From contig OZ241330.1 of the NCBI GenBank assembly GCA_965200045.1, forward strand, positions 293,888 through 357,887: a stretch of DNA of 64,000 nt. The letters are read 5' to 3'. The DNA is from Flavobacteriaceae bacterium. GTDB lineage: Bacteria; Bacteroidota; Bacteroidia; Flavobacteriales; Flavobacteriaceae. Numbering within the stretch: the first letter of the stretch is position 1; every line of letters begins with the position of its first letter. This document shows positions 12,716 through 52,915 of this stretch, one piece after another. The position numbers and the translations under genes were made by a program. The notes beneath the pieces were generated by a model. The model searched no databases. It worked only from the letters and a program-made list of their open reading frames with translations, and was not told where the DNA came from.

Positions 12716-12721
12716 TTTAAA

Positions 12722-12850
12722 AAATCACTTGACCGAGGTTTTTAGAATTCAATGATGGGAAGATTTTGATGCTTCTTAAATTCTGAGCAAATGCTATTCG
12801 TTTTGGTATTTTTTTAGCTCTAACCAAGCAAATGATGGTAGGGTCAATTT
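12722..12850 (+). repeat. copy B of the recombinase-associated repeat
   Basis: It lies directly upstream (in gene sense) of the decayed recombinase. It is alignable with 11672.. and with 45672.. (core gaggtttttagaattcaatgatgggaagattttgatgct). Confidence 0.5.
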
Positions 12851-12936
12851 ATGAATAGGTAGTTATTGATAAAGATGAGATTTAATAAATTATCGGGTGA
12901 AGAGTTTGCTTATTTTCGCATTCCTGAATTTAGAAA

Positions 12937-19852: not shown

Positions 19853-20406
19853 GTGTTTATTGTTTGATTCCTCGCTCCATTTAACAACTAATTAAATTAC
19901 CTTAATTCCATGTAAACCAATACCTTATCCTACATTATGTTGACCACAGAACTCATTTAATCCAATGGCCTTGGCTATCAAAAATATTCATTTTCCGGAA
20001 TAATTGCTTTTTGGCACTTAAGGATATAATCCCCCGTTAATTTTTTGAAGTGTTTCTTGGATTTTTCCCCTTGGGAAATCTTCCACTAGTAAATACAAGG
20101 TCTCTTCATTCGATGCCTTGATTATTTTTTTAAAAATTTGGAAATTTCAATGGCTTTTTTTACTCTATCAAAATGATATTGTTTATCCTTGACTTGATAT
20201 TCCAATCGAGAAAGAATCTCTTTTTTATTTTTTGAGGATGAAACCACATCAATACTAAATCCTAATTGTTGTTTTAAATAACAATTTCGATGAGGTTCTT
20301 GGGAAATCGTAAACCATACATGGAAATGACCGACTTCATGAACCAATACATAACGGTCCACCTCATCCCAATAATCACGAGGACAACCATTATTCAATAA
20401 AATTTT

Positions 20407-21697: not shown

Positions 21698-22420
21698 AAA
21701 ATTTTTTCAGTCCATCGAGAACCATAAACATAGTCTTCGCTGATGGATTCTAAATCCACAATATGGCCAGGTTGTAAATCCATTATGCTGATGGTTTTTG
21801 TTTTAATGATCGGAGTGGCTTCTTTTTCAGTTTTTTCACATTGTAGAACAATGATTTTCATTTCTTTAACAAATCGTTTTTAGCGTATAGACGAAGATAC
21901 AACATTATCGAATGAATCCATACCGTGGCCAAACTAGTGCTGATTATCCATAAAGGAAGCCCTGGTCGGATAGGGCATAAAACAAAAATAATACGGCGGG
22001 CAATGCTAAAAATTGAAGCATGGCATTTTTTATGATACCCCCACCTGCTTTTTTAGTATTTGCTTTGATATCATAATACCCATGAAATCATTTGGGAATT
22101 ATTATTACAACCATTCGAGTCAGAAGTTTTTTTGTTTTAGTTCATTGTATAGCATACTATTTTCTCAAATGAAAACTTTTTTCGTTATTCTATGTTTGAT
22201 ATTTTGAATTTTTATGGAACATATCATTTGCTGTTTATCCGTGTTGATGTCCATCTGATTGAAGTATGCAGTAACTTTAGTATGATTTACAAGTACTAGT
22301 TTAGACATTGTTAAATTCTAATTGGTTTGTTCTTAGAAATTCATTTATTTTGGAGTTCCCTTTTTTAATCTAAAAAACAATTCATACCGTCAAGAAAAAC
22401 AACATTTTAAATAAATTCCG

Positions 22421-37699: not shown

Positions 37700-39209
37700 A
37701 TTTAGTCGCTCCTTAAAAAGTCTTTTTTAGCGGTTATCGTTCTATTCTTTTGATGATCAAAGTTCTTTGAACTGAAAATGAAGCCCCTCTGAAAAAGTAA
37801 AAAAGAACATCTTGGACTCATGGTTCCATGAATTTCTTTAAATGCCATCCCGTAGCTGCTCAATAGGCATTGATCGTTGGGGATGGGGTGCCCATCAGAT
37901 CGTTTTCTTGCATACGATGTTCTGTTTTGAGATGGCCGATGAGTGGTTCCATGGCTGCTCGGCGTCGGAACTTTTTCTGCTTCTTTTGCTTTTGATAGGG
38001 GGTATCACTTTTCAATGGTTTGCCTGGAATCGATATCTTGGCCTCGCCAATCTGACGTTTTCCTCGACCCCCTCGATCATCGATCAGTTCTTTGGGAGTG
38101 AGACCGACGATGGATTCCTGTGGTTCCAATAAGGGTTGGATGGTTTGGCGATCATGAGGATGGCCCTCAAAAGCACGGATGGCCGTGATGATCATGGTTA
38201 GCCCCCCCCCTGTCGCGATCAGGCCGACTTGATTCCCCAATTCATATGTTTGATGAGCCTTGCCTTTGGCCATGCAAGCCTTAAACGGCTTGTCAATGGC
38301 ATCGACTTTGTTTTGATCGAATCGCTGTTGATGGATGACTTTTTGATACCATGTCAGCTCTTTTTGATATTGACTTTTTTGTTGGGGAGCTCGTTTTCGC
38401 CCGAGATCTCGGACTTGTCTGCCCGCTAAGGTCTTGAGCTTGGAGGTGGCCTTTTGGGCTTTTTTAGCTCGTCGAGGATGCTTGCCATGAAAGGTTTGAC
38501 GCACCCGTTCTTTCGAGGCTTTGGCATCGGTCTGTCTCTGTTTTATCTTTTCTTTTTCGGCGATTTTGTGGCACTGATCGATGACTTTTTGATTCCGTTT
38601 GGCATCGATCGGAAAGGTCACGTTGTTCCCTTGGACGGTGGTATCCGACAAGACCATCGATGAGGACTTCTTGATTTCTTTTTGATGCCACTGAACGGAA
38701 GAGGCAAAGATCTTTTCCACCCCTGCTTGACCCATCCGTTTTCTCATAGGACGCCCATCAGAAGGATCGCAGGGTGGTCCGTGTTTCATGAAATCAGAAC
38801 CCGTGACGTACGGCATGTAAGGATTTTCAATCCACCGTTCCATGAGGGTTTCATCGCCCAGATTGTCAAGACGCTTCACATCCAACAACCCACCATCACC
38901 CCAATGGGCTTGGCTGGACGACCCTTTGGGGAATAAAAGGAACCAAAGGCGTTTTCAAAAAAAGACCCATCCATGGCATCGGCCAGCAACTTGATCTGAT
39001 GTTTTGGATGGAGAATGGCATTGAATGCCGACGCGAATCACTGGGGCTGTTTGGGGGCTCCTTTTTGGATCATTTCTACAAGGTTTTGAGACCAAGAGAC
39101 GCATTTCCTTGCAGACTTCAAAGCCCTGTCTTGGCCAGTAGGGTATCATTCAATCTCACATATCAAGGGGATGATGGACTCTATTTGAGTTTTTAAGGAG
39201 CGCCTGAAT
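37700..39209 (-). mobile_element. IS5-family insertion sequence (about 1.5 kb)
   Basis: The imperfect terminal inverted repeats atttagtcgctccttaaaaagtc (37700..37722) and gagtttttaaggagcgcctgaat (39187..39209) match at 20 of 23 positions. The element is visibly more G+C-rich than its flanks. I could see no target duplication. Confidence 0.8.
37860..39073 (-). pseudogene. IS5-family (DUF772 + DDE) transposase with one in-frame TGA and one -1 frameshift
   Basis: From ATG 39073 the sequence reads MIQKGAPKQPQ*FASAFNAILHPKHQIKLLADAMDGSFFENAFGSFYSPKGRPAKPIGVMVG. It then shifts frame near 38889-38892 into the 342-aa track ORF (LLDVKRLDNLGDETLMERWIENPYM.. ..FRRRAAMEPLIGHLK..). The in-frame TGA is at 39040..39038. 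Confidence 0.8.
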
Positions 39210-41068: not shown

Positions 41069-41698
41069 CTACTTTGCACCGAAGTTTTTCCAATATTCAA
41101 TCCACTCATTCCAAGGATTTGGATGCTTGATATTTTCAGTAATCCAATGAACAGGTAAAGACATGGTGTTGGAATGGTTTTTCATTGCCTTCGCTCCTTT
41201 GCTACTAATGGAGATTCCTCGATGGTTTGTTCCGAATGGGGTATCCAAGTATTTTTCTTTGCCGAGTTGTTTGAAAATTTCTTTCTGTACCGAAATAGGA
41301 AAGTAAAAGACACTTTCTTTTAGTTTCCCCCAAAATATGTTGATCAACAAAATGTCCTGTTTTGGTACGTAATTTTCATATTCCTTTTTCACTTTATCGG
41401 TGTCTGCTGTCCACAGAATTTTAAAGTTTCTTTCATTGGTTACTGTTTTGATGGATAACTTTTCGCCACAGAGCAATACATCGTAATCCCTTTCGATTCC
41501 AGATGCTGGAACCACCACATTTTCTTTTCCAAACTCGGATTCAAGAAAACCCAAAATAACGTGTTCTCTCAGCACACCAACAGCAGGATTGCTTCGTGGA
41601 AATCGATTGCGCACCATATCAAAAGCTACCGGAAGGCCTTTGGTCAAACGGTGTCTTTTTGAAGAATCGTTAAAGAGAGAAACCAAACATGGGTTCAT
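41069..41698 (-). CDS. putative type II restriction endonuclease
   Basis: It lies immediately downstream of, and overlaps by 4 nt, the methyltransferase gene. The segment ..ERDYDVLLCGEKLSIKT.. fits a PD-(D/E)xK core. Confidence 0.55.
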   Translation of the reverse strand: MNPCLVSLFNDSSKRHRLTKGLPVAFDMVRNRFPRSNPAVGVLREHVILGFLESEFGKENVVVPASGIERDYDVLLCGEKLSIKTVTNERNFKILWTADTDKVKKEYENYVPKQDILLINIFWGKLKESVFYFPISVQKEIFKQLGKEKYLDTPFGTNHRGISISSKGAKAMKNHSNTMSLPVHWITENIKHPNPWNEWIEYWKNFGAK

Positions 41699-42564
41699 GA
41701 TTCTGCTTTGATGCGTTTTATTGCAGTTGCTACATATTCCGATGAGGTATCGTACCCCACATAGTTCCTTCCAGAACGAAGTGAGGCTATTGCTGTGGTT
41801 CCTGATCCTATAAAAGGATCCAAAACGATTTCTCCATCAAACGTGTACAATTGAATCAGTCTTCTCGGTAATTCTATGGGAAAAGGTGCTGGATGATGGA
41901 CTCGTTTGGCAGACTCGGTAGGAAATTCCCACACACTTTTGGTGAAGTTTAGAAATTCTTCTTTGGTAATGGTGGATGCTTTGTTTTTGCTTTCTCTATG
42001 GAATTGATCTTTAGAAAAAACAAGTATGTATTCGTGGGTGTCTCTTAATACGGGATTGGATGCCGACTGCCAACTGCCCCAAGCACAAGATACACCGGCA
42101 CTTGCCGATTTATTCCAAATAATTTCTCCTCGCATGAGAAAGCCGATATCGATCATTTGTTTGCTAATCATGGCACTGAGTGGAATGTATGGTTTGCGTC
42201 CAATGTTGGCTACATTGATGCATGCTCTTCCTCCAGGAACAAGCACTCGATAGACTTCTTTCCATACCGAATGCAACAGTTCCAAATATTCGTTTTCGGT
42301 AAGGTTTTCATCGTATGCTTTACCGACATTGTATGGTGGTGATGTTACCATCAAATGAATAGAATTGTCTGGAATTTCGTGCATGGTAACACTAGAACGT
42401 TGGTAGATTTGATTCACTAGATGATGGGGACATATCTCTTCGAACTTTTCTAATTCTAGGGCTTTTGTGTTTCCATTATCATACATTTTTCGGTTGTAAA
42501 AACGAGATGCATCATGGTTCACTCGATTCGAAGTCCCAAAGGTTTGCATTTCGGTGGTTTTCAT
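41695..42564 (-). CDS. DNA methyltransferase, N4/N6 beta-class
   Basis: Motif IV VTSPPYNVGK comes first and motif I DPFIGSGTT is near the C-terminus. Confidence 0.9.
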   Translation of the reverse strand: MKTTEMQTFGTSNRVNHDASRFYNRKMYDNGNTKALELEKFEEICPHHLVNQIYQRSSVTMHEIPDNSIHLMVTSPPYNVGKAYDENLTENEYLELLHSVWKEVYRVLVPGGRACINVANIGRKPYIPLSAMISKQMIDIGFLMRGEIIWNKSASAGVSCAWGSWQSASNPVLRDTHEYILVFSKDQFHRESKNKASTITKEEFLNFTKSVWEFPTESAKRVHHPAPFPIELPRRLIQLYTFDGEIVLDPFIGSGTTAIASLRSGRNYVGYDTSSEYVATAIKRIKAES

Positions 42565-42647
42565 GTTTTAGAATTTTAGTGTTTTCTCACGCTTAAGTTG
42601 ATTCCCTTATTCCCTGACTTTTCTTACTAACAATATTCCTTATGGTT

Positions 42648-44831
42648 TTAAACTAAGAATGCCTTTTTAGTTTCATTAAACGCTCTATACAATTGTTCTG
42701 ATGTTTTCATAAGCCATTCAAAATAAATTTCTTGTTTGGATTTGTCATCTATATTTTCTACATCTGATACACAAAGAATTCTTGAAGCTCTTTTTTCTTT
42801 GAGTTCTTGCCATTGGATTTCTTCTTTAACAAAACTTTCAAAATATTCTCTATTCTGAAACATTTGGTGAAATAACGTCTTTTTCGATGGTATGTAAATT
42901 TCCGCACCAAATCGATTTTTATGATTGCCTTTTAAATACCTTAACAGAACCACAAGAGCTCCTTTTATTTTGTGATTAGGGATCACCAAACTACACCTAG
43001 GGTTTAATATTGCTTTTTCATAAGACAGTTCTGTTCCCCTTTGTCGGGTTTTCGAATAATCTTGGAATCGTTTCCAAAAATCCAAATGTTTTTTTTGAGA
43101 CGCTGAAAGAGTTGAATCTTTTTCATTTAAAGAAAGTTCGGTTGCTTCTTGATTGTCTATATGAGGATATTTCCAAATATTCTTTGCTGTTTGAGATAGT
43201 ATCTCAGCTCGTTTCGTTATCGTGTCTACATTCCAATAATCAATGATCTTCAGAAAATCGTTCAGTCGAAGAGGAGAATGGTTAAATCCATTTTGGTGTT
43301 CCTTTTTGTACTGGAAAGACCTGTTTCCATATTCGGAATTATACCCTGTCAATGTGAGATTTCCAATAGTATTTAAATATTTATTATGTATTCTTTCCCA
43401 ATCTTCTCCTATCATCTCTTTCCAATCATTACTATTTTCAATTTCTTGGGGCATGATGTGCTCTACCGTTAAACGCGGTGGAATTAATCTCTCCCTATTT
43501 CTATCCAATTCCTCTTCCATACGACGTAGGATATAGTTTCGAACATCTTGGATGATGTGATTGGAAGTAAAGTCTTCTAAAAACTGATCATTATTTCGAA
43601 ATTTATTTTTTCCAGAAAGTTTCGTGATTTCAGATTTAAAACTGATGATGTAACGGTTTTTATTAATTTTTGAATACAAGCTGGCAAACACTTGATTGAA
43701 TCCCTCTTTACGTCCAGTAAAAAGGACCTTTCGGATTATAAAACTTTCTATATAATCTAAGATCAATAAAAATTCACTTCTATTGATTATCTCCTTCTGA
43801 TAATCGTCATAGAGACCGAGAAATAAGGGATATGCCTGAGGAATTTTAATGTCTAAACAGCATTGAAATGCCTTATGTAAGTCTCTGTCCTGTTCTTTTC
43901 CAAGAGCAATGTTTAGATAGTATTGTGAAAATACTTGGATCTCTTTAATCAGTTTTATTTTACCTGCTATGTCCGCTACTCTTATGGTATGTTCTTTAAA
44001 ATCTTCGTAAACCCGTCTTTTTTTACCCCTTCCATTTTTGAGAATGAGATATCTCCATACAAACAAAGAAAAATCTTCATTAAACTTGTCACCAAACTCC
44101 TCTTCCATAGGTTCCCATATTTTTTCATGAATCTTTTTCTGTTCGTTTTTTGGCAACCACATGAATAACCAGTTTTTGATTTTTTCAGCATCCGTTAATA
44201 ATTGACCGGTACTATTAATCGTTTCAAACACTAGTTGCGGGTCATCTATGTTTTGTTCTAGTTCTATAGCGACAAGAGATAGTCGGTACAAACCACGATA
44301 CAACCAATCCACATTTTCTTCCTTTATTTCATTAACGAAAAATTGATAACACTGGTACAGTTCTTTTTTTTTATCCTGTTCCGATAGATTCAAATTCTTG
44401 ATTAGTTTGTTAAATACAACATCGTCTCTTTTGCTTAAGATTAATTTTCTTTTATCCTCCTCGGTTGAAATCCGATTAAATAGAAACTCTTCAATCATTT
44501 TTTCGATGACTTCGGAATCGTATCTTCTTGTTGCTTTAAAAAAATTGTATAATGAAAGCACTAGCGTTATTATGGTTGTCAGTCGTTGCTGTCCATCGAT
44601 TAAATGGTAGATTCCAGGACTAGCGTGTCTTCTTGGTCTTTCTACATAATACACTATCGATCCAAGATAATGTTGCGCTTCGGTGTCTTCTTTTTCTCCA
44701 ATAGTCAAAAAATCATCGAAGATTCTTTGCCAATTTTTTTTCGTCCAGGAATACGCCCTTTGATAAATAGGAATTACGTACTGACTACGTTCCTCCATCA
44801 ATCTTAAAACGTCAACTTTTTCTACCTGCAT
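42648..44831 (-). CDS. GmrSD-like type IV (modification-dependent) restriction enzyme: DUF262 + DUF1524 + DUF4268-like tail
   Basis: DUF262 motifs IPIYQRAYSW and IDGQQRLTT. A DUF1524 His-Me-finger region LTVEHIMPQ..IGNLTLTGYNSEYGNRSF. The C-terminal ~150 aa (..HLDFWKRF..AEIYIPSKK..IQWQELKEKRASRI..) resemble DUF4268. Confidence 0.85.
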   Translation of the reverse strand: MQVEKVDVLRLMEERSQYVIPIYQRAYSWTKKNWQRIFDDFLTIGEKEDTEAQHYLGSIVYYVERPRRHASPGIYHLIDGQQRLTTIITLVLSLYNFFKATRRYDSEVIEKMIEEFLFNRISTEEDKRKLILSKRDDVVFNKLIKNLNLSEQDKKKELYQCYQFFVNEIKEENVDWLYRGLYRLSLVAIELEQNIDDPQLVFETINSTGQLLTDAEKIKNWLFMWLPKNEQKKIHEKIWEPMEEEFGDKFNEDFSLFVWRYLILKNGRGKKRRVYEDFKEHTIRVADIAGKIKLIKEIQVFSQYYLNIALGKEQDRDLHKAFQCCLDIKIPQAYPLFLGLYDDYQKEIINRSEFLLILDYIESFIIRKVLFTGRKEGFNQVFASLYSKINKNRYIISFKSEITKLSGKNKFRNNDQFLEDFTSNHIIQDVRNYILRRMEEELDRNRERLIPPRLTVEHIMPQEIENSNDWKEMIGEDWERIHNKYLNTIGNLTLTGYNSEYGNRSFQYKKEHQNGFNHSPLRLNDFLKIIDYWNVDTITKRAEILSQTAKNIWKYPHIDNQEATELSLNEKDSTLSASQKKHLDFWKRFQDYSKTRQRGTELSYEKAILNPRCSLVIPNHKIKGALVVLLRYLKGNHKNRFGAEIYIPSKKTLFHQMFQNREYFESFVKEEIQWQELKEKRASRILCVSDVENIDDKSKQEIYFEWLMKTSEQLYRAFNETKKAFLV

Positions 44832-44849
44832 AGTGTTTGTTTCCCATGT

Positions 44850-45455
44850 TCAACTTCCCACATACTTCTTCACCTTCGTTACTGTTGCCAAAGAAACTCC
44901 CAAGCGTCCACTAATATCTCTGTAAGACTTTCCTTTTTGCAATAACGAAATGATCTTTTGTGTCTTAGGTTTCTTTAAAAAAGTTTCTCGACTTTCAACA
45001 GAACCGTAGTTTCTACCAAACTTTCCACCTCGTTGTTTGTAAGCTTCCCTTCCTTGACGAATCCGTTCCGAAATAGTGTCTCGTTCCAATTCATAAACAC
45101 TAGCCATGACCGATACCATCATTTTCCATATAGGATTGGGAGAACCATCGGCTTTGCGACTGGGGAGACCCAATTCCTTTACCACAATGTTAATGTGATT
45201 GGCTTCCAAATGATGGATGGTCTGGAGCACATCGGCCGTATTTCTTCCTAATCGGCTGAGATCATCCACCACGATTTCCGTGACTTTCTTTTCTTGGACT
45301 AATTGCCATAACTGAGACGCTTGGGGACGTTCTTTAAAGGGTATCGCACCAGAAACACCCTTGTCAAAAAGCGTTATATCATAAGTGTCTTTGTCGAGGT
45401 CAAATCGCTTGCCTTCTTGTTGGTAAGTGGAGGTTCGGTTATACTTGATATTCAA
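44850..45455 (-). CDS. serine recombinase (resolvase/invertase family)
   Basis: Catalytic region YNRTSTYQQ, ..VVDDLSRLGRNTADVL.. and a C-terminal HTH (KSYRDISGRLGVSLATVTKV). TTG start. Confidence 0.85.
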   Translation of the reverse strand: MNIKYNRTSTYQQEGKRFDLDKDTYDITLFDKGVSGAIPFKERPQASQLWQLVQEKKVTEIVVDDLSRLGRNTADVLQTIHHLEANHINIVVKELGLPSRKADGSPNPIWKMMVSVMASVYELERDTISERIRQGREAYKQRGGKFGRNYGSVESRETFLKKPKTQKIISLLQKGKSYRDISGRLGVSLATVTKVKKYVGS

Positions 45456-45775: not shown

Positions 45776-46041
45776 ATTTAATGTCTCCAAAGAATTACAG
45801 TCGAACCTCTTTTTTATAGGGCTTATATACCTGAGTGCACAAAGGGAGCTAAAAAAAAGAAATTATTTTACCTTTTCAGGTGGCGTTGAGAATAGGAGTT
45901 TAGCCAATGCTTCTGGTGATTCAGCTGGTATCGATCGAGATAAGTTAAGTATATCCCTCGTTTTAGGACGGCCACGGGGATTGGATTTTGGTTTGGTTTT
46001 CATATTTACCGCAAATTTAGTGTTTTACTTAAAATTATCTT

Positions 46042-47466
46042 TCACTTCATATAACCTAATTTTTTGTTTTGTCTTCTAAGTCCAGAAAGAGTGTAAATAT
46101 TACTTTTTAGTTTATTACAAGGACCACAAAGTAAAAGTCTATTTGATATATGATTTATACCTCCATCACTTACTGGTATATTATGATCTAATTCTAAGTA
46201 CCTACAATCATTAAAGACTTTATCACATCCTTTACATTGATAACCTTGTTGATCTAATAAATGTTCAAACATTTCTTGACGACTCCATCTTTTACCTGGT
46301 GGTTCTTGAACTTTTACTTTAACTCTTAATTCAGAAGACTCTACCTTTCCATCATCTGTTCTAATTGGAACCTCTTTTTTGAAATGGACTTTTAAACAGG
46401 GAGTGTTTTTTGGAGTCTCTCCATCAATGTAAAAATTTTCATCACGCATTCTAGCTAAAATCACTTCTTCTGTTTTATCCCAAATATCTATTCCAACCCA
46501 TTTTCTACCTAAACTCTCAGCAGCTAAAATTGTTGTCGCACAACCACAAAACGGATCTAATACCATATCGTCAATTTGGGTTGCCGTTTCGATTATTCTC
46601 TTATAAAGTGTCATTGGTTTTTGTGTTGGATACCAAAAAGGCTCTGATGGATCATCACTTTTTCTTCGTTTTCTAATTGGGTTTATATCATTCCAATGAT
46701 CTTCTAATAAACGACCTCTTTCTTTTGATAAGAAAACTTCATCTAAATTCTTTGGAACTCGACCTTGATTCTTTCTAGATTTAAATTCATCAGGTCTTTG
46801 ATTTTTTAATTTTCTATACGTAATTTCTCCCTTTTCATCAAATAATGACCCAAATCTAGATATTGTCGTTTCAGAAAGAGGTCCTCTTGCTAATTTGCCT
46901 ATTCGTTTTTTTTTCGCGTTTTTAGCGTACCAAAAAATAGTATCATGTTTTGTCTTATAATAATCAGTGTTTCTTCCACCCCCGACATCTAAATAACACC
47001 AGACTATTTCATTACAAAAACTTTTTTTTCCAAAAATAGCATCTAATAAAATTTTTATATAATGTCCTACACTATAATCACAATGAAGAAATATGCTTCC
47101 AGTTTCCTTCAATATTCTTTTCATTTCAAGCAATCTTACAGCCATAAAACATAAAAAAGCACCTACGTCTGAGCCAACTTCATTTCTCTCTTTTTTTAGA
47201 TTTTCCTTAGTCTTCTTCATATGAATTTGATTAGCTGCATCGATTACTTCCCAAACATCTCTATAGCTATCATAGATTTCATCTAACCATTCTGACTTCA
47301 CATCTTTTTCCCAAGACCAACGATCTTGAAATCTAGCTGATTTATCTATTCTGTCAGGAGTAGCATGGAAATCCCTTCCTTTCTTAAAGGGAGGGTCTGT
47401 TGCAATTAAATCAACAGACTGATCATTCATCGATCTTAAAAATTTTAAATTATCGCCATGAAACAA
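46042..47466 (-). CDS. DNA methyltransferase (N4/N6 beta-class) fused to a C-terminal HNH nuclease; the natural ATG (47509) is out of frame
   Basis: Motif IV ATDPPF, motif I DPFCGCATT and a C-terminal HNH finger CKGCDK..LELDHNIPVSDGGINHISNRLLLCGPCNKLKSN. The track start is a TTG. The frame stays open upstream through the C9 tract. Confidence 0.85.
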   Translation of the reverse strand: MFHGDNLKFLRSMNDQSVDLIATDPPFKKGRDFHATPDRIDKSARFQDRWSWEKDVKSEWLDEIYDSYRDVWEVIDAANQIHMKKTKENLKKERNEVGSDVGAFLCFMAVRLLEMKRILKETGSIFLHCDYSVGHYIKILLDAIFGKKSFCNEIVWCYLDVGGGRNTDYYKTKHDTIFWYAKNAKKKRIGKLARGPLSETTISRFGSLFDEKGEITYRKLKNQRPDEFKSRKNQGRVPKNLDEVFLSKERGRLLEDHWNDINPIRKRRKSDDPSEPFWYPTQKPMTLYKRIIETATQIDDMVLDPFCGCATTILAAESLGRKWVGIDIWDKTEEVILARMRDENFYIDGETPKNTPCLKVHFKKEVPIRTDDGKVESSELRVKVKVQEPPGKRWSRQEMFEHLLDQQGYQCKGCDKVFNDCRYLELDHNIPVSDGGINHISNRLLLCGPCNKLKSNIYTLSGLRRQNKKLGYMK

Positions 47467-47488
47467 TGTGCGATTTTTCCAATTTTCA

Positions 47489-47497
47489 GGGGGGGGG
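47489..47497 (-). repeat. homopolymeric C9 tract (G9 on the plus strand) at the 5' end of the methyltransferase-HNH gene
   Basis: Counted directly: ..aattttca ggggggggg taaattg.. on the plus strand. Confidence 0.9.
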
Positions 47498-47519
47498 TAA
47501 ATTGCTCATTAATAGATAC

Positions 47520-48521
47520 TTATGACTTTTCTATAGTTTGATAATTCGGATTACTTTTCTTCAGCATTAGATACGTTAACCGTTTTCCTTCAAACCCTGA
47601 AGCCATTTGATTCATTTGCTCGGTCGTGTTCATCCCGCGCACATTATGTCGACCAGCAAATTCCGTCACGTAACGATCCAAATGCCAAGAAGATAGTTTG
47701 TGATAAGTCCCATAATAGCCACGTTTCAATAAAGACCAAAACGATTCAATGCCATTGGTGTGGACATCCCCATTGACCCATTCATTCACTGAATGTTTGA
47801 CTTTTTGGTGCATGTATTCTTTCACTAATTGATTGTACGAAGATAAATCATCGGTAAATACTTCTGTTCCCTTCTCGGTTGTTTCATTGACAAAATCCGT
47901 TAATGTCTTTGTTTTGGTGTTCTCCACCACTTGAGCTTGCACTTGATTGGTTTCCCGATTTTTAGCACCAGCGACAATCGTTTTACCAATAGCACCTCTT
48001 CCCGCTTTTAACTTCTTATCCGCATGTTTGTTTTTCTCTTTGCCGCCCATGTAGGTTTCATCCACTTCGGTTGGTCCAGAAAATAAGCATTGATTCACTT
48101 CCCATGTTTTTCTGATACGATGAGCTAAATGCCATGCAGCTTTCTGTGTAATCCCTAAATCACGATGTAATTTCATGCTAGAGACGCCTTTAATGCCTGT
48201 CGTTAAAATATAAACCGCGATTGCCCAGATACGATAACCCAATTTGGTATCCTGCATCACACTATTCACCCGCACACTAAAACGCTTCCGACAATCTCGA
48301 CAATGATAAGGCATGGATGGATGTTTTGTACCACTTAAAATATTAGTGGATCCACAATGAGGACACTTGGGTTGATGCCCCCATCGTTGAAAAGCAAACC
48401 ATTGTTCTGCTGTTTCATCATCAGGAAACATCTTCAATATCTGGAACCATGAAATCCCTTTGCGATGATACTTTCCTGGGGCGATTCCTTTTTGTTTTTG
48501 AGTTGTTTTTGGTTGATTCAT
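47520..48521 (-). CDS. IS1595-family transposase (zinc ribbon + ISXO2-like DDE domain)
   Basis: ..AEQWFAFQRWGHQPKCPHCGS..YHCRDCRKRFSV.. zinc ribbon, then ..VDETYMGGKEKN.. and ..HTNGIESFWSLLKRGYYGTYH.., typical of ISXO2-like transposases. The ORF is intact at 333 aa. Confidence 0.9.
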   Translation of the reverse strand: MNQPKTTQKQKGIAPGKYHRKGISWFQILKMFPDDETAEQWFAFQRWGHQPKCPHCGSTNILSGTKHPSMPYHCRDCRKRFSVRVNSVMQDTKLGYRIWAIAVYILTTGIKGVSSMKLHRDLGITQKAAWHLAHRIRKTWEVNQCLFSGPTEVDETYMGGKEKNKHADKKLKAGRGAIGKTIVAGAKNRETNQVQAQVVENTKTKTLTDFVNETTEKGTEVFTDDLSSYNQLVKEYMHQKVKHSVNEWVNGDVHTNGIESFWSLLKRGYYGTYHKLSSWHLDRYVTEFAGRHNVRGMNTTEQMNQMASGFEGKRLTYLMLKKSNPNYQTIEKS

Positions 48522-48780
48522 GATATCTATTTTTGTCTATTTGAATGCACAAATATACACTTTTTTCTGAAAGAATCGGTATGAAATCAAAAAAAACAAT
48601 CAATAAATCATCTTTATTTCGACCTACAAAATAGAGGTTATTTGATTTGCCGATAAGATCAATCTAAAAAATCAGTTACTTTTGAGCACTCAGGTATATA
48701 AGCCCCTTTTTTATGTCATGTTGTCATAATTTAAGTTTTTGTTAACATATGGCACGATTTTAGGCAATACACGTTTATAT

Positions 48781-49335
48781 ATGGAGAACCTTATTTCAAG
48801 AGAATTATTATTCAATACAAGACAGAAAAATCTACAGAGATCTAAAAAATTTTATCATAAAGCCATAGAGGGAAGAAAGAGAGAGAAAAAGTTCGATGAA
48901 GTATCCATCTTTCTTTCGCATAAACATGGCGAAACTGAATTAATAGAACAGATAATCGTATTGTTTGAAGACCTTGGGGTTTCTGTTTATATTGATTGGT
49001 TGGATTCAGAAATGCCAAAAACAACGAATGGTTCCACAGCAAAAAGAATAAAAGAAAAAATCCGAAGTTGCGATAAGTTCATCTTTTTAGCAACCGAAAG
49101 GGCCATTTCTTCGAAATGGTGTAATTGGGAATTAGGCTATGGAGATTCTCAAAAGTTCTTCGAGAATATTGCAGTGATACCAATTACAGAAAAACCTAAA
49201 CAAGTCTATTCAGGCAATGAATATTTAGAGATATATCCAATTATTACTTCTCAGAACAGTTATTCTATTGGTGGTGAATTTTATCTTGAATTTGAAGATG
49301 AGAAAACTGAACTTTCAGATTGGTTAAAATCGTAG
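48781..49335 (+). CDS. TIR-domain protein
   Basis: ..VSIFLSHKHGETELIEQIIVLFEDLGVSVYIDW..IKEKIRSCDKFIFLATERAISSKWCNWELGYGD.. is a TIR-type beta-alpha pattern. ATG 48781 is preferred over the track's TTG 48739. Confidence 0.75.
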   Translation: MENLISRELLFNTRQKNLQRSKKFYHKAIEGRKREKKFDEVSIFLSHKHGETELIEQIIVLFEDLGVSVYIDWLDSEMPKTTNGSTAKRIKEKIRSCDKFIFLATERAISSKWCNWELGYGDSQKFFENIAVIPITEKPKQVYSGNEYLEIYPIITSQNSYSIGGEFYLEFEDEKTELSDWLKS

Positions 49336-49338
49336 ATT

Positions 49339-49773
49339 ATGAATAATAACGAGGTATTACACAAAGAAATTGATTTAATTCAAAACGTCATTTCTAGAAT
49401 GGCGAATAACTCCTTTCTTTTGAAAGGTTGGATGGTTGCAATCATTGTTGGGGTTTCAGTATTGACTCATGATTCATTAGTTACTGACGATAGTATTTAC
49501 TTTTCTTTAATTCTTGTTTTACCTGTTTTTGTTTTTTGGTATTTAGATGCATTTTTCCTTCACAAAGAAAAGTGCTATCGAAAACTTTACGAATGGGTTG
49601 TTAAAAACAGACATAAGACAAACAAAAACTTGTACTCTCTTGATTATACCCCTTTTGAAGGCAAAGTAGATTCGATACTAAAAATAATGTTCTCTAAAAC
49701 TTTAAGAGTGTTTTATGTTATACCTATTATCATATTTATAGCAATAATTTTATACAATATTTTAAATGGGTAA
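49339..49773 (+). CDS. small 3-TM membrane protein (candidate effector or anchor of the TIR operon)
   Basis: 144 aa with an N-terminal amphipathic helix and hydrophobic spans GWMVAIIVGVSVL, IYFSLILVLPVFVFWYLDAFFL and YVIPIIIFIAIILYNIL. There is a 3-nt gap to the upstream ORF and an 8-nt overlap with the downstream ORF. Confidence 0.7.
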   Translation: MNNNEVLHKEIDLIQNVISRMANNSFLLKGWMVAIIVGVSVLTHDSLVTDDSIYFSLILVLPVFVFWYLDAFFLHKEKCYRKLYEWVVKNRHKTNKNLYSLDYTPFEGKVDSILKIMFSKTLRVFYVIPIIIFIAIILYNILNG

Positions 49774-50446
49774 GAAAATATTTGTTTCGTATAAATACGC
49801 TGACACTTTGGTTGAACGACTATCCGAAGTGAGTTTGGAAGAACAAACAACTCCAAGGGATTATCTTAATATTTTTGAGAATACTATCGAGAACAAGGAT
49901 GATATTTACAAAGGAGAATCGGATGATGAAGACCTAGGCGACTTATCTAAGTCTACAATTGAAGATAAGTTAAAAGATAGAATACGTGATAGTACTATTA
50001 CTGTGGTCTTGATTTCAAAAGGAATGAAAGAAAACAGTAAATCTGAAAAGGAGCAATGGATTCCCTGGGAAATAAGTTATTCTTTAAAAGAAATATCAAG
50101 AGGGGGTAGAAAAAGTTTAACAAATGCCGTTTTAGCCGTTGTATTACCTGATAATTGTGGATCTTATGATTATTTTGTGCAAAAAGACGTGCAATGTGGC
50201 TGTCAAACTCTAATTGTATCCTTTCTTTTTCCGATTATGAGAAAGAATATGTTTAATATAAAAAATCCTAATACAAGGGAGTGTAATTGTGGTCGTTCAA
50301 ATGTATACTTTGATGATTATCCATCGTATATCTATACTATCGTATGGAAAGACTTTATCTTGAGTTATAATAAATATATCGATATTGCCGTTTCTCTTTT
50401 TGATAAGAGAGATAGATATAACATATCCAAAGAATTAGAGGACTAG
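49766..50446 (+). CDS. ThsB-like TIR-like (DUF1863-type) protein with Cys-rich C-terminus
   Basis: KIFVSYKYAD..IRDSTITVVLISKGMKENSKSEKEQWIPWEISY.. follows the DUF1863/ThsB pattern. The tail is ..QCGCQ..ECNCG.. Confidence 0.7.
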   Translation: MGKKIFVSYKYADTLVERLSEVSLEEQTTPRDYLNIFENTIENKDDIYKGESDDEDLGDLSKSTIEDKLKDRIRDSTITVVLISKGMKENSKSEKEQWIPWEISYSLKEISRGGRKSLTNAVLAVVLPDNCGSYDYFVQKDVQCGCQTLIVSFLFPIMRKNMFNIKNPNTRECNCGRSNVYFDDYPSYIYTIVWKDFILSYNKYIDIAVSLFDKRDRYNISKELED

Positions 50447-50568
50447 CACATAAGTATTAAAGATTCGGAAAAAACCATTTCTAGCTCCACATTGTTTGAC
50501 TATTAGTTGTCTTTGTTGTTTTTGGAACACTACGATTCTCAACTGTAGCTTACACTTCAAATAAAGAT

Positions 50569-51417
50569 TTAAATATTAGAAAAGTTATCTGAACCATCTA
50601 ATTGTATCACATATCGAAATCGAACTTCATCATTTTGATCGCCACGAGTGTCGTCTTTAATTCCCAGTATCTGAATGGCTGCGTAAAGGCCTTCCATATT
50701 TTTTAGTATGGCAATCTGATTCATCTCGACCGTTCGGCATCTCGAAGTGAAATTCAAATTTTTAGCTTCCGTGACATCTGAAATTGTCTGAATTTCTTTT
50801 TGAACCAATGCAACTCCTTGAATTGAAAGCGGATCGTTGTAAAGATGAATACGTGTATGACTTGCCTTACTCCACATTGTTTCAAATTTGGCTTTTCCGG
50901 AACCTATGACGCATCTTCCATTGTAATTGCTGTAGTCAAATGTAATTTCTCCTTGTGAATTTTTTATTCTTGGGGGAGGAATATTCGAATCTTTTCCACG
51001 TAAGTGTCGAAATCCGAGTTTCTCCGCCATTTCTTTTGCTAAAAGTTGAGAAGTCGGATAATCTCTAACTTTTAAATATTGAATATCCTGATCCAAACCA
51101 GGTAATATAGAATCATCAAACCGTACAGGGAGTATTTTTACTTGATTCTCGCTCATTGCCTTCATAGAATGCTCTGCTTCTAATCTTGGCCATTTCTTGG
51201 AACAGTAATCCTTTGAAATAAATAAGACAACATAGTTGCTTTTTTCAGCATAAATGTATTCCGTGATTTCAGTTAATGATTGACCCCAGTGAGCATTTTT
51301 GCTATGAATATCATAATAAACGCTCATACCGCTTGATAATAGGAAATTTGCTATGACTTCAATATAATCTCTCTGTTCTCCAGCAAAAGATAACGCTACA
51401 TCATATCGTTTATTCAT
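50569..51417 (-). CDS. TIR-domain protein with ~140-aa unassigned C-terminal domain
   Basis: The N-terminus YDVALSFAGEQRDYIEVIANFL..YVVLFISKDYCSKKWPRLEAEH.. is a classic bacterial TIR. The C-terminal half looks beta-rich and has no recognised family. Confidence 0.85.
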   Translation of the reverse strand: MNKRYDVALSFAGEQRDYIEVIANFLLSSGMSVYYDIHSKNAHWGQSLTEITEYIYAEKSNYVVLFISKDYCSKKWPRLEAEHSMKAMSENQVKILPVRFDDSILPGLDQDIQYLKVRDYPTSQLLAKEMAEKLGFRHLRGKDSNIPPPRIKNSQGEITFDYSNYNGRCVIGSGKAKFETMWSKASHTRIHLYNDPLSIQGVALVQKEIQTISDVTEAKNLNFTSRCRTVEMNQIAILKNMEGLYAAIQILGIKDDTRGDQNDEVRFRYVIQLDGSDNFSNI

Positions 51418-52915
51418 TTTGAGATTGGATCATTTCATTAAAATCAAATTCTTTAAGTGTGGGATGAAATGGTTCATATGTGCGTTTTAAACGATTCCAA
51501 TAGTTTCTTCCTTCTTCATAGCTGCCAATGTTTAGTACATATCGGTCGATAATGGCAAGAAGTATTTCTCGAGCTTCATAAACAATATCCTGTGAATACG
51601 ATTTCAAACTTTCCCTTTTTGATTTTGTCGAATGTACTTGCATATTTCTCAAATTGACTACAGCTTCTGAAACAGACATCTTCTTGGATTTACTAAACTT
51701 CTGAAAGTCATCTGATATTTGATTCTCATCCAGATTTATTCCAATATATGTGCAAAGCATTTGAATTTTGGAAGCCGCACTAATTCTCTCACCATCGTTT
51801 TTAGTCACCATTTTAAGTTTGTCAAATAAGATCCAATTCCAAAGTAATTCAATACCTACCTGTGCTAATATGAGACTTCCCTCCGTATGCCCTTGATTCG
51901 AATTCGCCTCAATATACCAATGAAGAAGATCTGATAATGCTTGTTCATCATCTTCCGTTTTTCTAATCTCATGCATTTGCTCTATAAATCTTGAATTAAC
52001 CCACGTATCATCACAAATTGGTTTGATAACGTCTTTATAGGGGCGAAATTTGGTATAATATGATATCTGAGAATCAATTAATGTGTTCTCATCATAAAAT
52101 TCGACAAAGACCATTCCAATATGACTTCTAGCAAAAAAACTCAAGCAAAATCTAAGTGTGTTTAAAACATTTCTTGCTTCATCAATCGTCATTCCTGATT
52201 CGAAGTTCATATACCCATGGTGGGTGATACAATGTCCACTGGCGTTTTTAAGGTCTTTTAATATTTTATCTTTTAAGTCATATCGACCATCAATTACTAC
52301 TTCTACTCCATTGGAAATTGAAAATCTGAGTCGATTTCGCTTCGATCTAAGTTTTCCATTGTCTTTGTTTTGAGTGATTTCACCGTAACTAAATGGTAGA
52401 TTAGTTATTGAAAATTCAACTTTTTGAACTAGTTTATTATCGTCGTCCTCTATTTCTTTTTCTTGAACAACTCCTTGAAAAATACCTTGACGGCCTAAAT
52501 GGCTTATGGTACTAGAACCAAAAAGTATTGGAATGGTTCCTAACAATTTATCACAAACAAAAACATCCACTGATTCTTGACCTAAGAAATACTCTAAAAC
52601 ATTTTCTTCATCTGAATATTTTATTTCTAATACCATCCTTGGACAAGGATGCCAATCAAATTGAATTTCACCTTGTTTAAACTTAAGCTCAAGAGATGTT
52701 TGGTTAAAGGCCGATATAGTAACATCTTTCAGCGTTTTTCCTATCTGTTCTTCCAACGTTATGTTCCAGTTGTCTAAGGTTTTAACGATGGTATCATATG
52801 GGAATCTCAATGAAACATATCCTTGATGTATTAATATGGCTTCATTGACGTCTTTGTTTAGATGTTTACGATCAAACAGCTTCGGCACGTTCTTAAAAAG
52901 GTATTCTACATCCAT
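51410..52915 (-). CDS. 501-aa protein with HEPN-like C-terminal domain (Rx4H), possibly ApeA-like
   Basis: There is an 8-nt overlap with the downstream TIR gene. The C-terminal ~150 aa look helical and contain ..VVNLRNMQVHSTK.. (R-x4-H). The size and layout recall ApeA-type HEPN proteins. The N-terminal ~330 aa are unassigned. Confidence 0.5.
   Translation of the reverse strand: MDVEYLFKNVPKLFDRKHLNKDVNEAILIHQGYVSLRFPYDTIVKTLDNWNITLEEQIGKTLKDVTISAFNQTSLELKFKQGEIQFDWHPCPRMVLEIKYSDEENVLEYFLGQESVDVFVCDKLLGTIPILFGSSTISHLGRQGIFQGVVQEKEIEDDDNKLVQKVEFSITNLPFSYGEITQNKDNGKLRSKRNRLRFSISNGVEVVIDGRYDLKDKILKDLKNASGHCITHHGYMNFESGMTIDEARNVLNTLRFCLSFFARSHIGMVFVEFYDENTLIDSQISYYTKFRPYKDVIKPICDDTWVNSRFIEQMHEIRKTEDDEQALSDLLHWYIEANSNQGHTEGSLILAQVGIELLWNWILFDKLKMVTKNDGERISAASKIQMLCTYIGINLDENQISDDFQKFSKSKKMSVSEAVVNLRNMQVHSTKSKRESLKSYSQDIVYEAREILLAIIDRYVLNIGSYEEGRNYWNRLKRTYEPFHPTLKEFDFNEMIQSQNE

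What the first reader, a model, noticed from the sequence alone, without database searches (positions are those of the whole stretch)
47486..47509. C9 homopolymer puts the methyltransferase-HNH gene out of frame with its ATG: candidate phase-variable switch
On the minus strand, ATG 47509..47507 opens MSNLPPP and then hits TGA (47488..47486) because the tract has 9 C. With 8 C (or 11) the same ATG reads MSNLPPPENWKNRT-LFHGDNLKFLRS.., straight into the 474-aa methyltransferase-HNH ORF. That ORF is open through the tract, and its only in-frame start downstream is a TTG at 47466. The ATG lies 10 nt after the transposase stop, consistent with co-transcription. Homopolymer slippage at the 5' end of methyltransferase genes is the classic phasevarion mechanism, and in this assembly the gene would be in the OFF or low-expression state. 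Because the protein also carries an HNH nuclease, switching would toggle a methylase-nuclease activity. A homopolymer sequencing error is the trivial alternative.
Basis: seen in the sequence. Interest (0 to 1): 0.7.

Follow-up and report, generated by a model that had tools for sequence, protein, structure and literature searches.

The report
Slippery C-run gating a transposon-borne methylase-nuclease
A run of nine C's at the very start of a DNA-methylase/HNH-nuclease gene, which is cargo of an IS1595-type jumping gene, puts the gene out of frame here; divergent relatives keep hypermutable repeats at the same spot, so it is most likely a real slippage-prone on/off (or low/high) switch, though no read data could be checked.

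Summary
On the minus strand, ATG 47509, C9 (47497-47489) and TGA 47488-47486 give MSNLPPP*. With 8 or 11 C the ATG joins the 488-codon methyltransferase-HNH frame. That repaired reading is ancestral: homologues start 3-5 residues before an invariant NW.NRTLFHGDN block, and the TTG start would lack invariant N8 and R12.

The gene is cargo of a 2.9-kb IS1595-family element with 32-nt terminal inverted repeats and an 8-bp target duplication (TTTTTTAT). The same cargo recurs in IS1595 elements of unrelated bacteria.

In relatives only 51-65% identical, pure C tracts sit at the same 5' position (C9, C9, C9, C11, C13). One is G12 just upstream of the start, and others are 8-nt tandem arrays (19.5 copies in one). 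Some are in frame and some are not.

Other homopolymers inside long ORFs of the window show no indel signature, so assembly error is possible but not favoured.

Best reading: a hypermutable 5' tract, here in the OFF or leaky state. CCC_UGA also allows a low level of +1 frameshifting that yields the same protein. Switching itself is unproven. This is a new variant of phase-variable methyltransferases; interest is moderate.

The parts
45810..45817 (.). 8-bp target-site duplication TTTTTTAT (left copy)
   Evidence: the identical octamer lies directly outside both inverted repeats.
45819..45850 (.). Terminal inverted repeat of the IS1595-family element (end distal to the transposase), GGGCTTATATACCTGAGTGCAC...
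   Evidence: I5: 32 nt, 88% complementary to 48674-48705. Similar ends (GGGAATTAT.., GGGTATTAT.., GACTTATATAC..) bound the homologous elements in L001, L008, L010, L013 and L016.
45863..46003 (-). 46-aa ORF between the MTase-HNH and the IS end; not conserved, function unknown
   Evidence: No Pfam, NCBIfam or PADLOC hit. No similarity to the small ORFs at the same place in other elements.
46042..47505 (-). Methyltransferase-HNH open frame (488 codons stop-to-stop, stop included). First canonical start is TTG 47466; the database call P0001 starts at ATG 47430.
   Evidence: AlphaFold model pLDDT 83.5. The fold is a beta-class MTase (CcrM/MboIIA/RsrI/Type III Mod). The HNH CxxC...DH...N...CxxC motifs are intact.
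47486..47509 (-). Ancestral start ATG plus a 7-codon mini-ORF (MSNLPPP) ending at TGA because the tract has 9 C
   Evidence: The repaired reading matches homologue N-termini (P0021 MANLPPPPPISSEPNW, P0150 MSNSRNTAPPPEKN).
47489..47497 (-). C9 homopolymer (G9 on the + strand): slippage-prone tract. 8 or 11 C give in-frame translation. The last CCC plus TGA forms a CCC_UGA +1 shifty stop.
   Evidence: literature.
47464..47466 (-). TTG, first in-frame canonical start, 19 nt after the mini-ORF stop. A possible re-initiation site giving a protein that lacks invariant N8 and R12.
47520..48521 (-). IS1595-family (ISXO2-like) DDE transposase with N-terminal zinc ribbon, 333 aa
   Evidence: PF12762 3e-40, PF12760 1.5e-7. 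(NF033547 1e-50). Its >=90% cluster has 24 members in records named Flavobacteriaceae MAGs.
48550..48557 (-). TATATTTG, a Bacteroidetes -7-like promoter element 28 nt upstream of the transposase ATG (weak evidence). No such motif lies between the transposase and the MTase.
   Evidence: The motif is not enriched in the window as a whole, so this is only a pointer to co-transcription.
48674..48705 (.). Terminal inverted repeat of the IS (transposase-proximal end)
   Evidence: I5.
48707..48714 (.). 8-bp target-site duplication TTTTTTAT (right copy)

Best explanation
The C9 run is a real, slippage-prone homopolymer in codons 5-7 of a methyltransferase-HNH gene. That gene is the cargo of a 2.9-kb IS1595-family element and is probably co-transcribed, and translationally coupled, with the transposase. 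With 8 (or 11) C, translation from ATG 47509 gives the full 488-aa enzyme with its invariant N-terminal block. With 9 C, as assembled here, the ATG frame stops after seven codons, so the copy is in an OFF or low state. Replication slippage of +/-1 C would switch it heritably and reversibly. In the 9-C state a small amount of the same full-length protein could still arise by +1 ribosomal slippage on CCC_UGA, or an N-terminally clipped protein by re-initiation at TTG 47466. Shown: the sequence, the frames, the ancestral start, the IS structure and the recurrence of 5' repeats in relatives. Inferred: that the tract length actually varies in the population, that the variation is selected to gate a potentially toxic methylase-nuclease cargo, and that the leak pathways operate.
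For: Sequence and frames. Ancestral start: about 100 of 120 homologues begin M-x(2-4) before NW.NRTLFHGDN. N8, R12, L14, D18 and N19 are invariant, and N11, T13, H16 and G17 are >=90% conserved in 54 sequences, so the TTG or ATG-47430 products are non-native. Cargo of an IS: 32-nt IRs and an 8-bp TSD. The same MTase-HNH lies within IS1595-type IRs or next to IS1595 transposases in L001, L008, L009, L010, L012, L013, L015, L016, L017 and L018. Recurrent 5' repeats at the same position in elements whose MTases are 51-65% and whose transposases are 39-52% identical: L010 C13 in frame; L012 C11 in frame; L013 C9 in frame; L016 C9 in frame; L015 C9 out of frame, where C10 would reconnect; L018 G12 lying 8 nt before the GTG start; L003 8-nt unit x19.5 with ATG out of frame by 1; L017 a different 8-nt unit at a contig edge. 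Expected G/C runs >=9 within 220 nt of the start over 14 loci is 0.046; 7 were observed (the sample was partly chosen on PPP N-termini). All Pro codons inside the runs are CCC although CCC is 23% of Pro codons here, and G-runs and 8-mers occur at the same place, so the conserved feature is at DNA level, not a polyproline peptide. Near-identical genes differ in the leader: P0047 vs P0180 differ by one 7-aa unit, and P0014 (MSETNW), P0151 (MTKQFTPPPPGFSANW) and P0008 (MANTPPPISSGPNW) have different leaders. C9 meets the published threshold; 9-nt tracts switch at about 2-13 x 10^-3 in the organisms cited there (PMC5909438). Assembly quality: none of the homopolymers >=7 nt lying inside long ORFs of the window shows an indel signature, including seven other 9-mers, one of them a T9 inside this same gene. 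The rest of the gene is intact over 98-100% of homologue length, and the TSD is perfect, so the lesion is recent or reversible. Leak: CCC_UGA is an established +1 shifty stop, generally <=2% and 15% in pheL (PMC3082878 and PMC5009743). Slipping there yields exactly MSNLPPPENWK...
Against: There are no reads and no second copy. The >=90% cluster of this protein has one member, so length variation at this locus is untested. The source genome is absent from the searchable genome and metagenome collections. Only a minority of the family carries a 5' repeat (about 5 of the 120 best hits by N-terminal sequence, plus some hidden among internal-Met calls). L001 has the same transposase-to-MTase order without a tract. 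Members of this family are often frameshifted or split elsewhere in the gene (P0174, P0188, P0191; clusters 5 and 6), so decay or assembly indels are common and an OFF state need not be adaptive. Homopolymer phase variation has not, to my knowledge, been described in Flavobacteriaceae (my own recollection, not tested).
Confidence: 0.55

Rival explanations
1. Plain inactivation. The tract is a mutational hot spot, and this copy has suffered an ordinary 8C-to-9C frameshift that is on its way to pseudogene decay. The 5' repeats in relatives are by-products of slippage, not selected switches.
For: Many family members are split or frameshifted at other positions (P0174, P0188, P0191; genes in 2-3 pieces on one contig). 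L003 also has an internal frameshift, and L015 has a 1-nt deletion outside the tract. The window contains degraded mobile-element remains. IS cargo is dispensable.
Against: Pure tracts persist at the same site across 51-65% protein divergence and in hosts of 36-54% GC. A merely deleterious tract should be broken by synonymous CCN changes. Three different repeat types occur at the same spot (C-runs, G-run, 8-mers). The gene here has no other lesion.
Confidence: 0.2
2. Assembly or sequencing error. The true tract has 8 C and the gene is simply intact.
For: G/C homopolymers of 9 nt are error-prone on most platforms. The 2.66-Mb single contig suggests a long-read assembly (my inference). Related loci come from metagenome assemblies, some labelled '8x'. 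Split genes are common in such assemblies.
Against: No homopolymer inside a long ORF of the window shows an indel signature among the 73 runs >=7 nt, including G9 in ribonucleotide reductase, C9 in the 37860-38954 ORF and T9 in this same gene. Coding density is normal for the large ORFs.
Confidence: 0.15
3. Recoding is the normal expression route. The 9-C allele is the functional form, and the enzyme is made by programmed +1 ribosomal frameshifting at CCC_UGA (or by RNA-polymerase slippage on the C-run), keeping a toxic enzyme at a low level.
For: C9 followed immediately by TGA creates CCC CCC CCC UGA. A +1 slip at any of the three Pro codons gives exactly the ancestral protein. CCC_UGA is used for expression in Listeria phage tail genes and gives 1-15% shifting in E. 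coli. Frameshifting is common in IS gene expression (PMC5009743).
Against: The shift site is not conserved. Four tract-bearing homologues are in frame, and the out-of-frame L015 has no stop after its tract. No stimulatory element is evident. RNA-polymerase slippage is documented mainly for A/T runs (my own knowledge, not tested).
Confidence: 0.07
4. The gene is expressed normally from TTG 47466 (or ATG 47430), and the upstream ATG and tract are irrelevant.
For: The frame is open and TTG is a legal start. The first beta-strand (residues 13-16) is mostly retained. Database annotation uses ATG 47430.
Against: Invariant N8 and R12, and near-invariant N11 and T13, lie upstream of the TTG. Homologues called from the internal Met turned out to have in-frame upstream starts when the DNA was read (L008, L009).
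Confidence: 0.03

Closest known systems
Phase-variable DNA methyltransferases (phasevarions), e.g. Helicobacter pylori modH/modJ/modL and Campylobacter upsaliensis modU with G(n) tracts (PMC5909438)
   Same: A beta-class N6/N4 methyltransferase gene carries a mononucleotide G/C tract of >=9 nt inside the ORF, so +/-1 nt slippage switches translation on or off. Divergent alleles of one gene family keep the repeat.
   Different: It is not a Type III mod gene: there is no Res partner, and the MTase is fused to a C-terminal HNH nuclease. The gene is cargo of an insertion sequence and not a chromosomal R-M locus. The host appears to be a Flavobacteriaceae bacterium known from MAG records, not a host-adapted pathogen. 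No switching or regulon has been shown.
IS1595-family insertion sequences carrying passenger genes (Siguier, Gagnevin & Chandler 2009, cited in PMC2853133; 'ISNwi1 group' from my memory of ISfinder)
   Same: DDE_Tnp_IS1595 transposase with an N-terminal zinc ribbon, terminal IRs beginning GGG..TTAT, an 8-bp target duplication, and an extra gene between the transposase and the IR.
   Different: I found no published record of this MTase-HNH fusion as IS1595 cargo, or of a hypermutable repeat controlling any IS1595 passenger gene. That is an absence in the searched library only.
CCC_UGA '+1 shifty stop' (E. coli pheL, Listeria phage tsh; PMC3082878, PMC5009743), and 'savior indel plus compensatory frameshifting' in the herpesvirus thymidine-kinase G-run
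   Same: A homopolymer indel puts the gene out of frame, and the same tract allows low-level ribosomal slippage that restores the product. The exact CCC_UGA motif is present here.
   Different: The motif here arises only in the 9-C allele and is not conserved in relatives, so it is probably incidental leak and not programmed recoding.
Single-chain restriction-modification enzymes (Type IIG/IIC/IIL, e.g. MmeI; phase-variable poly-G Type IIG genes in Campylobacter; from my own knowledge)
   Same: Nuclease and methyltransferase sit in one polypeptide, and some such genes are phase-variable through poly-G tracts.
   Different: Those enzymes have an N-terminal PD-(D/E)XK nuclease and a gamma-class MTase. 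This one has an N-terminal beta-class MTase and a C-terminal zinc-finger HNH (closest profile match: IscB/Cas9-type HNH). No solved or PADLOC-listed full-length analogue was found.

Membership tests
Phase-variable methyltransferase (phasevarion-type contingency gene) | Gene encodes a DNA methyltransferase | tested here: met
   PF01555 6.5e-41. Beta-class MTase fold with CcrM, MboIIA, RsrI and EcoP15I Mod as best matches. DPPF and DPFCGCATT motifs are conserved.
Phase-variable methyltransferase (phasevarion-type contingency gene) | Simple-sequence repeat of switching length inside the ORF (mononucleotide >=9; PMC5909438) | tested here: met
   C9 at 47489-47497, within codons 5-7 of the ancestral ORF.
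Phase-variable methyltransferase (phasevarion-type contingency gene) | A change in repeat length changes the reading frame relative to the start codon | tested here: met
   9 C gives a stop after 7 codons; 8 or 11 C give the full 488-aa protein.
Phase-variable methyltransferase (phasevarion-type contingency gene) | Repeat length varies within a population or between strains at the same locus | not testable with these tools
   There are no reads, and no >=90% identical copy exists in 15 billion proteins. Indirect evidence only: homologous elements carry C9, C9, C9, C11 and C13 in both frame states, and near-identical genes differ by one repeat unit (P0047 vs P0180).
Phase-variable methyltransferase (phasevarion-type contingency gene) | Type III mod with adjacent res (classical phasevarion architecture) | tested here: not met
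   No Res helicase-nuclease gene lies inside or next to the element. The neighbours are the transposase and a 46-aa ORF. The MTase is fused to HNH.
Phase-variable methyltransferase (phasevarion-type contingency gene) | Switching changes the global methylation pattern and a regulon | not testable with these tools
   Needs methylome and transcriptome data from ON and OFF subclones.
IS1595-family insertion sequence with passenger gene | DDE transposase of the IS1595 type with an N-terminal zinc ribbon | tested here: met
   PF12762 3.1e-40 and PF12760 1.5e-7. NF033547 1.2e-50, above its cut-off.
IS1595-family insertion sequence with passenger gene | Terminal inverted repeats enclosing the transposase and the passenger | tested here: met
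   45819-45850 and 48674-48705, 32 nt, 88% complementary. Analogous IRs are found in L001, L008, L010, L013, L016 and L018.
   TTTTTTAT at 45810-45817 and 48707-48714. No empty site was available for comparison.
Programmed +1 ribosomal frameshift site | Shift-prone P-site codon followed by a slowly decoded stop | tested here: met
   CCC CCC CCC UGA. CCC_UGA is documented as +1 shift-prone.
Programmed +1 ribosomal frameshift site | Conservation of the shift site and out-of-frame arrangement among homologues | tested here: not met
   L010, L012, L013 and L016 are in frame. L015 is out of frame through a different lesion and has no stop after the tract.
Single-chain (Type IIG/IIL-like) restriction-modification enzyme | Nuclease and methyltransferase domains in one polypeptide | tested here: met
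   N6_N4_Mtase residues 32-346 plus HNH 425-470. The HNH metal-finger residues are invariant in 54 homologues.
Single-chain (Type IIG/IIL-like) restriction-modification enzyme | PD-(D/E)XK nuclease at the N-terminus with a gamma-class MTase (MmeI-like architecture), and demonstrated cleavage | tested here: not met
   The architecture is a beta-class MTase followed by a C-terminal HNH. PADLOC gives only generic MTase_II/III hits. Cleavage activity cannot be tested here.

The most novel reading that the evidence does not exclude
IS1595-family transposons of many bacterial phyla carry a single-chain methyltransferase-HNH nuclease whose expression is gated by hypermutable 5' repeats that arose or were retained repeatedly (poly-C, poly-G, 7- or 8-nt units). 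This would be a self-contained, mobile, stochastically switching methylase-nuclease module. It would be the first phase-variable cargo of an insertion sequence, and it occurs in environmental bacteria known from MAGs, not host-adapted pathogens. The nuclease-methylase may act as an addiction or homing aid for the element, with the switch limiting its toxicity.
Probability: 0.3. Interest if true: 0.7.

Novelty: new variant of a known kind. Interest (0 to 1): 0.5.

Why it matters
Phase-variable methyltransferases are known mainly from host-adapted pathogens and from chromosomal Type I/III systems. Here the same trick appears on the cargo gene of an insertion sequence, in a methylase fused to an HNH nuclease, and different kinds of repeat recur at the same 5' position in distantly related copies. 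If switching is real, a transposon can deliver a ready-made stochastic epigenetic or restriction switch to a new genome, and can silence a possibly toxic cargo reversibly. It also has a practical side. Such genes are annotated as 5'-truncated (as P0001 was) or dropped as pseudogenes, so this class is under-counted in MAG surveys.

Tried and rejected
1. Finding the source genome or further copies. Exact-protein contig look-ups for the transposase and P0001 returned nothing. The genome-contig scan returned only distant relatives. So no orthologous locus could be compared.
2. A degenerate DNA pattern (C7, then <=30 nt, then NW.NRTLFH.DN) re-found only the L013 contig in the metagenome collection and nothing in viral contigs.
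3. A repeated element explaining all three 9-nt G/C runs of the window was rejected. The other two lie in frame in ribonucleotide reductase (DQGGGKRKG) and in an ORF at 37860-38954, and their flanks are unrelated.
4. A strict link between the tract and the transposase-to-MTase gene order was rejected. L001 has that order without a tract, and L016 and L018 have tracts with other arrangements.
5. A polyproline peptide as the selected feature was rejected as the sole explanation. The runs use only CCC, and G12 and 8-nt arrays occupy the same place.
6. A conserved partner protein downstream of the MTase was not found. The small ORFs are unrelated.
7. The plasmid collection holds no full-length homologue. 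PADLOC and NCBIfam have no specific family. The PDB has no full-length analogue. Rfam finds no RNA family in the window.
8. A Bacteroidetes promoter-motif scan gave a candidate only upstream of the transposase, and the motif is not enriched overall, so it carries little weight.

Full report
OBSERVATION. On the minus strand the sequence reads TAA (transposase stop, 47522-47520), then GTATCTATTA, then ATG AGC AAT TTA CCC CCC CCC TGA (47509-47486), followed by AAATTGGAAAAATCGCACATTGTTTCATGGCGAT. The tract has exactly nine C. With eight C the ATG reads MSNLPPPENWKNRTLFHGDNLKFLRS... and runs into the 46042-47505 open frame. The first canonical in-frame start of that frame is TTG 47466, and a further ATG lies at 47430. 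Pfam finds N6_N4_Mtase (6.5e-41) and HNH (5e-7) in the repaired protein, and an IS1595 DDE transposase with its zinc ribbon in the upstream ORF. The window is 36.5% G+C, so only about 0.024 G/C runs of >=9 are expected. CCC makes up 23% of proline codons.

WHICH FRAME IS ANCESTRAL. The protein has thousands of relatives with the same MTase+HNH architecture (7951 with E<1e-10). The only 100% match, P0001, is the same gene called from the internal ATG (462 aa) on a 2,656,286-bp contig. The next relative is 67% identical. About 100 of the 120 best hits start with M plus 2-4 residues directly before NW(K/E/Q)NRTLFHGDNL. In an alignment of 54 sequences N8, R12, L14, D18 and N19 are invariant, and N11, T13, H16 and G17 are >=90% conserved. 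An AlphaFold model (pLDDT 83.5) puts the first beta-strand at residues 13-16. The 8-C reading therefore restores the native N-terminus, and a product started at TTG 47466 (L14) or ATG 47430 lacks invariant residues. Two homologues that were also called from the internal Met (L008, L009) proved to have in-frame upstream starts once the DNA was read. Such calls are annotation habits and not evidence for a short form.

A 32-nt inverted repeat (45819-45850 / 48674-48705, 88% complementary) encloses the transposase, the MTase-HNH gene and a 46-aa ORF. The octamer TTTTTTAT lies directly outside both arms (45810-45817 and 48707-48714). This is a 2.9-kb IS1595-family element with a passenger gene and an intact target-site duplication. 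It is inserted between a resolvase gene and a TIR-domain gene in what looks like a defence island: ThaI-like endonuclease, GmrSD, and three TIR/ThsB-like proteins. Proteins >=90% identical to the transposase and to a neighbouring TIR protein come from records named Flavobacteriaceae bacterium MAGs. The transposase cluster has 24 members while the MTase-HNH cluster has one, so this cargo-bearing copy is unique in the databases.

THE SAME CARGO RECURS. I read the DNA around 14 distinct homologues. The MTase-HNH lies inside IS1595-type inverted repeats (GGGAATTAT.., GGGTATTAT.., GACTTATATAC..), or next to an IS1595 transposase, in L001, L008, L009, L010, L012, L013, L015, L016, L017 and L018. Their hosts range from 42 to 62% G+C. 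The transposases are only 38-52% identical to one another, and the MTases 51-89%. In L016 the repeats enclose the MTase-HNH alone, a transposase-less derivative. The small ORFs that follow the MTase are unrelated between elements, so the MTase-HNH is the only conserved cargo. Earlier work notes solitary M genes flanked by IS elements and cites the IS1595 family paper (PMC2853133). I found nothing on this particular fusion.

REPEATS AT THE SAME 5' POSITION. The tract-bearing loci are:
- L010: ATG A C13 AA ATT GG, read as MTPPPPNW, in frame, directly after the transposase stop.
- L012: ATG GCT AAT CTA C11 T CCT, read as MANLPPPPPISSEPNW, in frame.
- L013: ATG GCT AAT ACA C9 ATT, read as MANTPPPISSGPNW, in frame.
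- L016: ATG C9 TCT, read as MPPPSQISEGTPNW, in frame.
- L015: transposase, then 20 nt, then ATG..GTA C9 AAC TGC AAA. A 1-nt deletion follows, so the ATG frame stops, and C10 would reconnect it.
- L018: G12 lying 8 nt upstream of the likely GTG start.
- L003: 19.5 perfect copies of AAGCGGCC between ATG 4793 and the NW block. The ATG is out of frame by one base, and one more copy or two fewer would restore it.
- L017: at least 6.5 copies of a different octamer (CCGGCAGT) running to the contig edge. Four assemblies of that >=90% cluster break inside the array.

Over the 14 loci, 0.046 G/C runs of >=9 are expected within 220 nt 5' of the conserved block and 7 are seen. The sample was partly picked on PPP-type N-termini, so the P-value is only indicative. 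Loci without a repeat are L001, L002, L008, L009 and L011. Near-identical genes also differ in the leader. P0047 and P0180 differ by one extra QPATGNR unit. P0014/L009 (MSETNW), P0151 (MTKQFTPPPPGFSANW) and P0008/L013 (MANTPPPISSGPNW) are 89% or more identical otherwise. P0150, in the cluster of a 64% relative of our protein, begins MSNSRNTAPPPEKN, against MSNLPPPENW here. Because the runs use CCC only, and G-runs and octamer arrays occupy the same site, the retained feature is a DNA-level repeat and not a polyproline peptide.

IS IT AN ASSEMBLY ERROR? Reads are not available. As a proxy I tested all 73 homopolymers of >=7 nt in the window. For every one lying in a long ORF, a +/-1 indel would shorten the ORF, so none shows an indel signature. 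These include seven other 9-mers (A9 5483, G9 24304 in ribonucleotide reductase, C9 38202, T9 44364, T9 46906 inside this very gene, T9 56074, T9 63136). The single flag (A7 at 16718) sits at an ORF edge. The window is therefore not generally indel-prone, but 0 of 2 errors for G/C 9-mers is a weak bound, so I leave 15% for this explanation.

MECHANISM. C9 meets the in-silico criterion used in the published surveys of phase-variable mod genes. Those surveys cite switching rates of 1.8-13.5 x 10^-3 for 9-nt tracts (PMC5909438). The simplest reading is slipped-strand mispairing that toggles translation from the ATG, which lies 10 nt behind the transposase stop. The only Bacteroidetes -7-like element nearby, TATATTTG, is upstream of the transposase, which fits co-transcription but is weak evidence. 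In the 9-C allele the ribosome meets CCC CCC CCC UGA. CCC_UGA is a classic +1 shifty stop, generally <=2%, 15% in pheL, and used by Listeria phages (PMC3082878 and PMC5009743). A +1 slip on any of the three CCC codons yields exactly the ancestral protein. Termination followed by re-initiation at TTG, 19 nt further on, is another possible leak. Because the in-frame relatives cannot use such recoding, I regard it as incidental leak and not the designed route.

WHAT THE PROTEIN IS. The MTase domain is beta-class. CcrM, M.BceJIV, MboIIA, RsrI and Type III Mod subunits are the best sequence and fold matches. The C-terminal HNH has both CxxC pairs and the DH...N core invariant, and is most like IscB/Cas9-type HNH domains. 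No specific NCBIfam or PADLOC family, no plasmid-borne full-length homologue and no solved full-length analogue exist. Whether it is a one-chain restriction-modification enzyme, an addiction module or a helper of the element is not known.

VERDICT. The interpretation 'candidate phase-variable switch' is supported by comparative evidence, but switching has not been demonstrated. The Type III 'phasevarion' label does not fit, and the gene is IS cargo. My estimates are 0.55 for a real hypermutable tract captured in the OFF or leaky state, 0.20 for plain decay at a hot spot, 0.15 for assembly error, 0.07 for recoding as the normal route and 0.03 for normal expression from TTG. In novelty terms it is a new variant of a known kind, and I score interest at 0.5.

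Noticed in passing
window 24304-24312, 38202-38210, 47489-47497: The window has three G/C homopolymers of exactly 9 nt, no runs of 7 or 8, and only one run of 6, against about 0.02 runs of >=9 expected. Two are in frame: GGG GGG GG in the ribonucleotide reductase motif DQGGGKRKG, and GGG in the ORF 37860-38954 (no Pfam hit; looks to me like a degenerate IS5-type transposase). Why a 36% G+C genome keeps such runs, even in an essential gene, is unexplained.
   Followed up: partly
L003 4837-4992; L017 1-55: Alphaproteobacterial homologues of the MTase-HNH carry perfect 8-nt tandem arrays directly before the conserved N-terminus. L003 has AAGCGGCC x19.5, and L017 has CCGGCAGT x>=6.5 with the contig ending in the array. 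In L003 the upstream ATG is out of frame by one base, and the gene also seems frameshifted internally (ORFs 5055-5495 and 5195-6625).
   Followed up: partly
L016 2878-2901 / 4675-4698: IS1595-type inverted repeats (24 nt, 88%) enclose only the MTase-HNH gene (3001-4599) with its C9 tract. This is a transposase-less, presumably non-autonomous, derivative of the element.
   Followed up: no
L013 vs L009 vs P0151: MTase-HNH proteins 89% or more identical have three different 5' leaders (MANTPPPISSGPNW, MSETNW, MTKQFTPPPPGFSANW), and L013 and L009 have different transposase orientations. The 5' end and the IS backbone are exchanged much faster than the cargo evolves. The cargo (51-89% identity) is also more conserved than the transposases (38-52%).
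   Followed up: partly
protein clusters of P0048, P0059, P0016, P0019: Many members of the family are split into 2-3 pieces on one contig or have frameshifted C-termini that destroy the HNH domain (P0188, P0191). This indicates frequent decay of this cargo, or indel errors in the metagenome assemblies.
   Followed up: no
window 41069-45455 and 48739-52915: The IS sits in a defence-island-like stretch: a ThaI-like restriction endonuclease (41069-41836), a GmrSD-type enzyme with DUF4268 (42648-44831), a resolvase/invertase (44850-45455), three TIR/ThsB-like proteins (48739-49335, 49766-50446, 50569-51417) and a 501-aa protein without Pfam hits (51410-52915). The IS end lies about 30 nt upstream of the first TIR gene and may affect its promoter.
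   Followed up: partly
window 20399-21705: A second mobile element: an ISL3-family transposase (20411-21250, minus strand) bracketed by 32-nt inverted repeats that are 97% complementary (20399-20430 / 21674-21705).
   Followed up: partly
window 3546-3770 vs 37763-37986; 10635-10795 vs 38925-39085; 10300-12900: Diverged inverted copies (73-84% complementary) link the region around the 37860-38954 ORF with two other places. The stretch 10.3-12.9 kb holds only short ORFs. These are probably decayed copies of another IS.
   Followed up: no
L018 153-941: Inside the IS of L018 a 262-aa ORF without Pfam hits reads through the G12 tract and overlaps the MTase start in another frame. Tract length would therefore also change the C-terminus of this ORF.
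   Followed up: no
L017 3661-4266: A HigB-like toxin / HTH antitoxin pair lies immediately beside the IS1595 transposase of the Rhodospirillaceae element.
   Followed up: no
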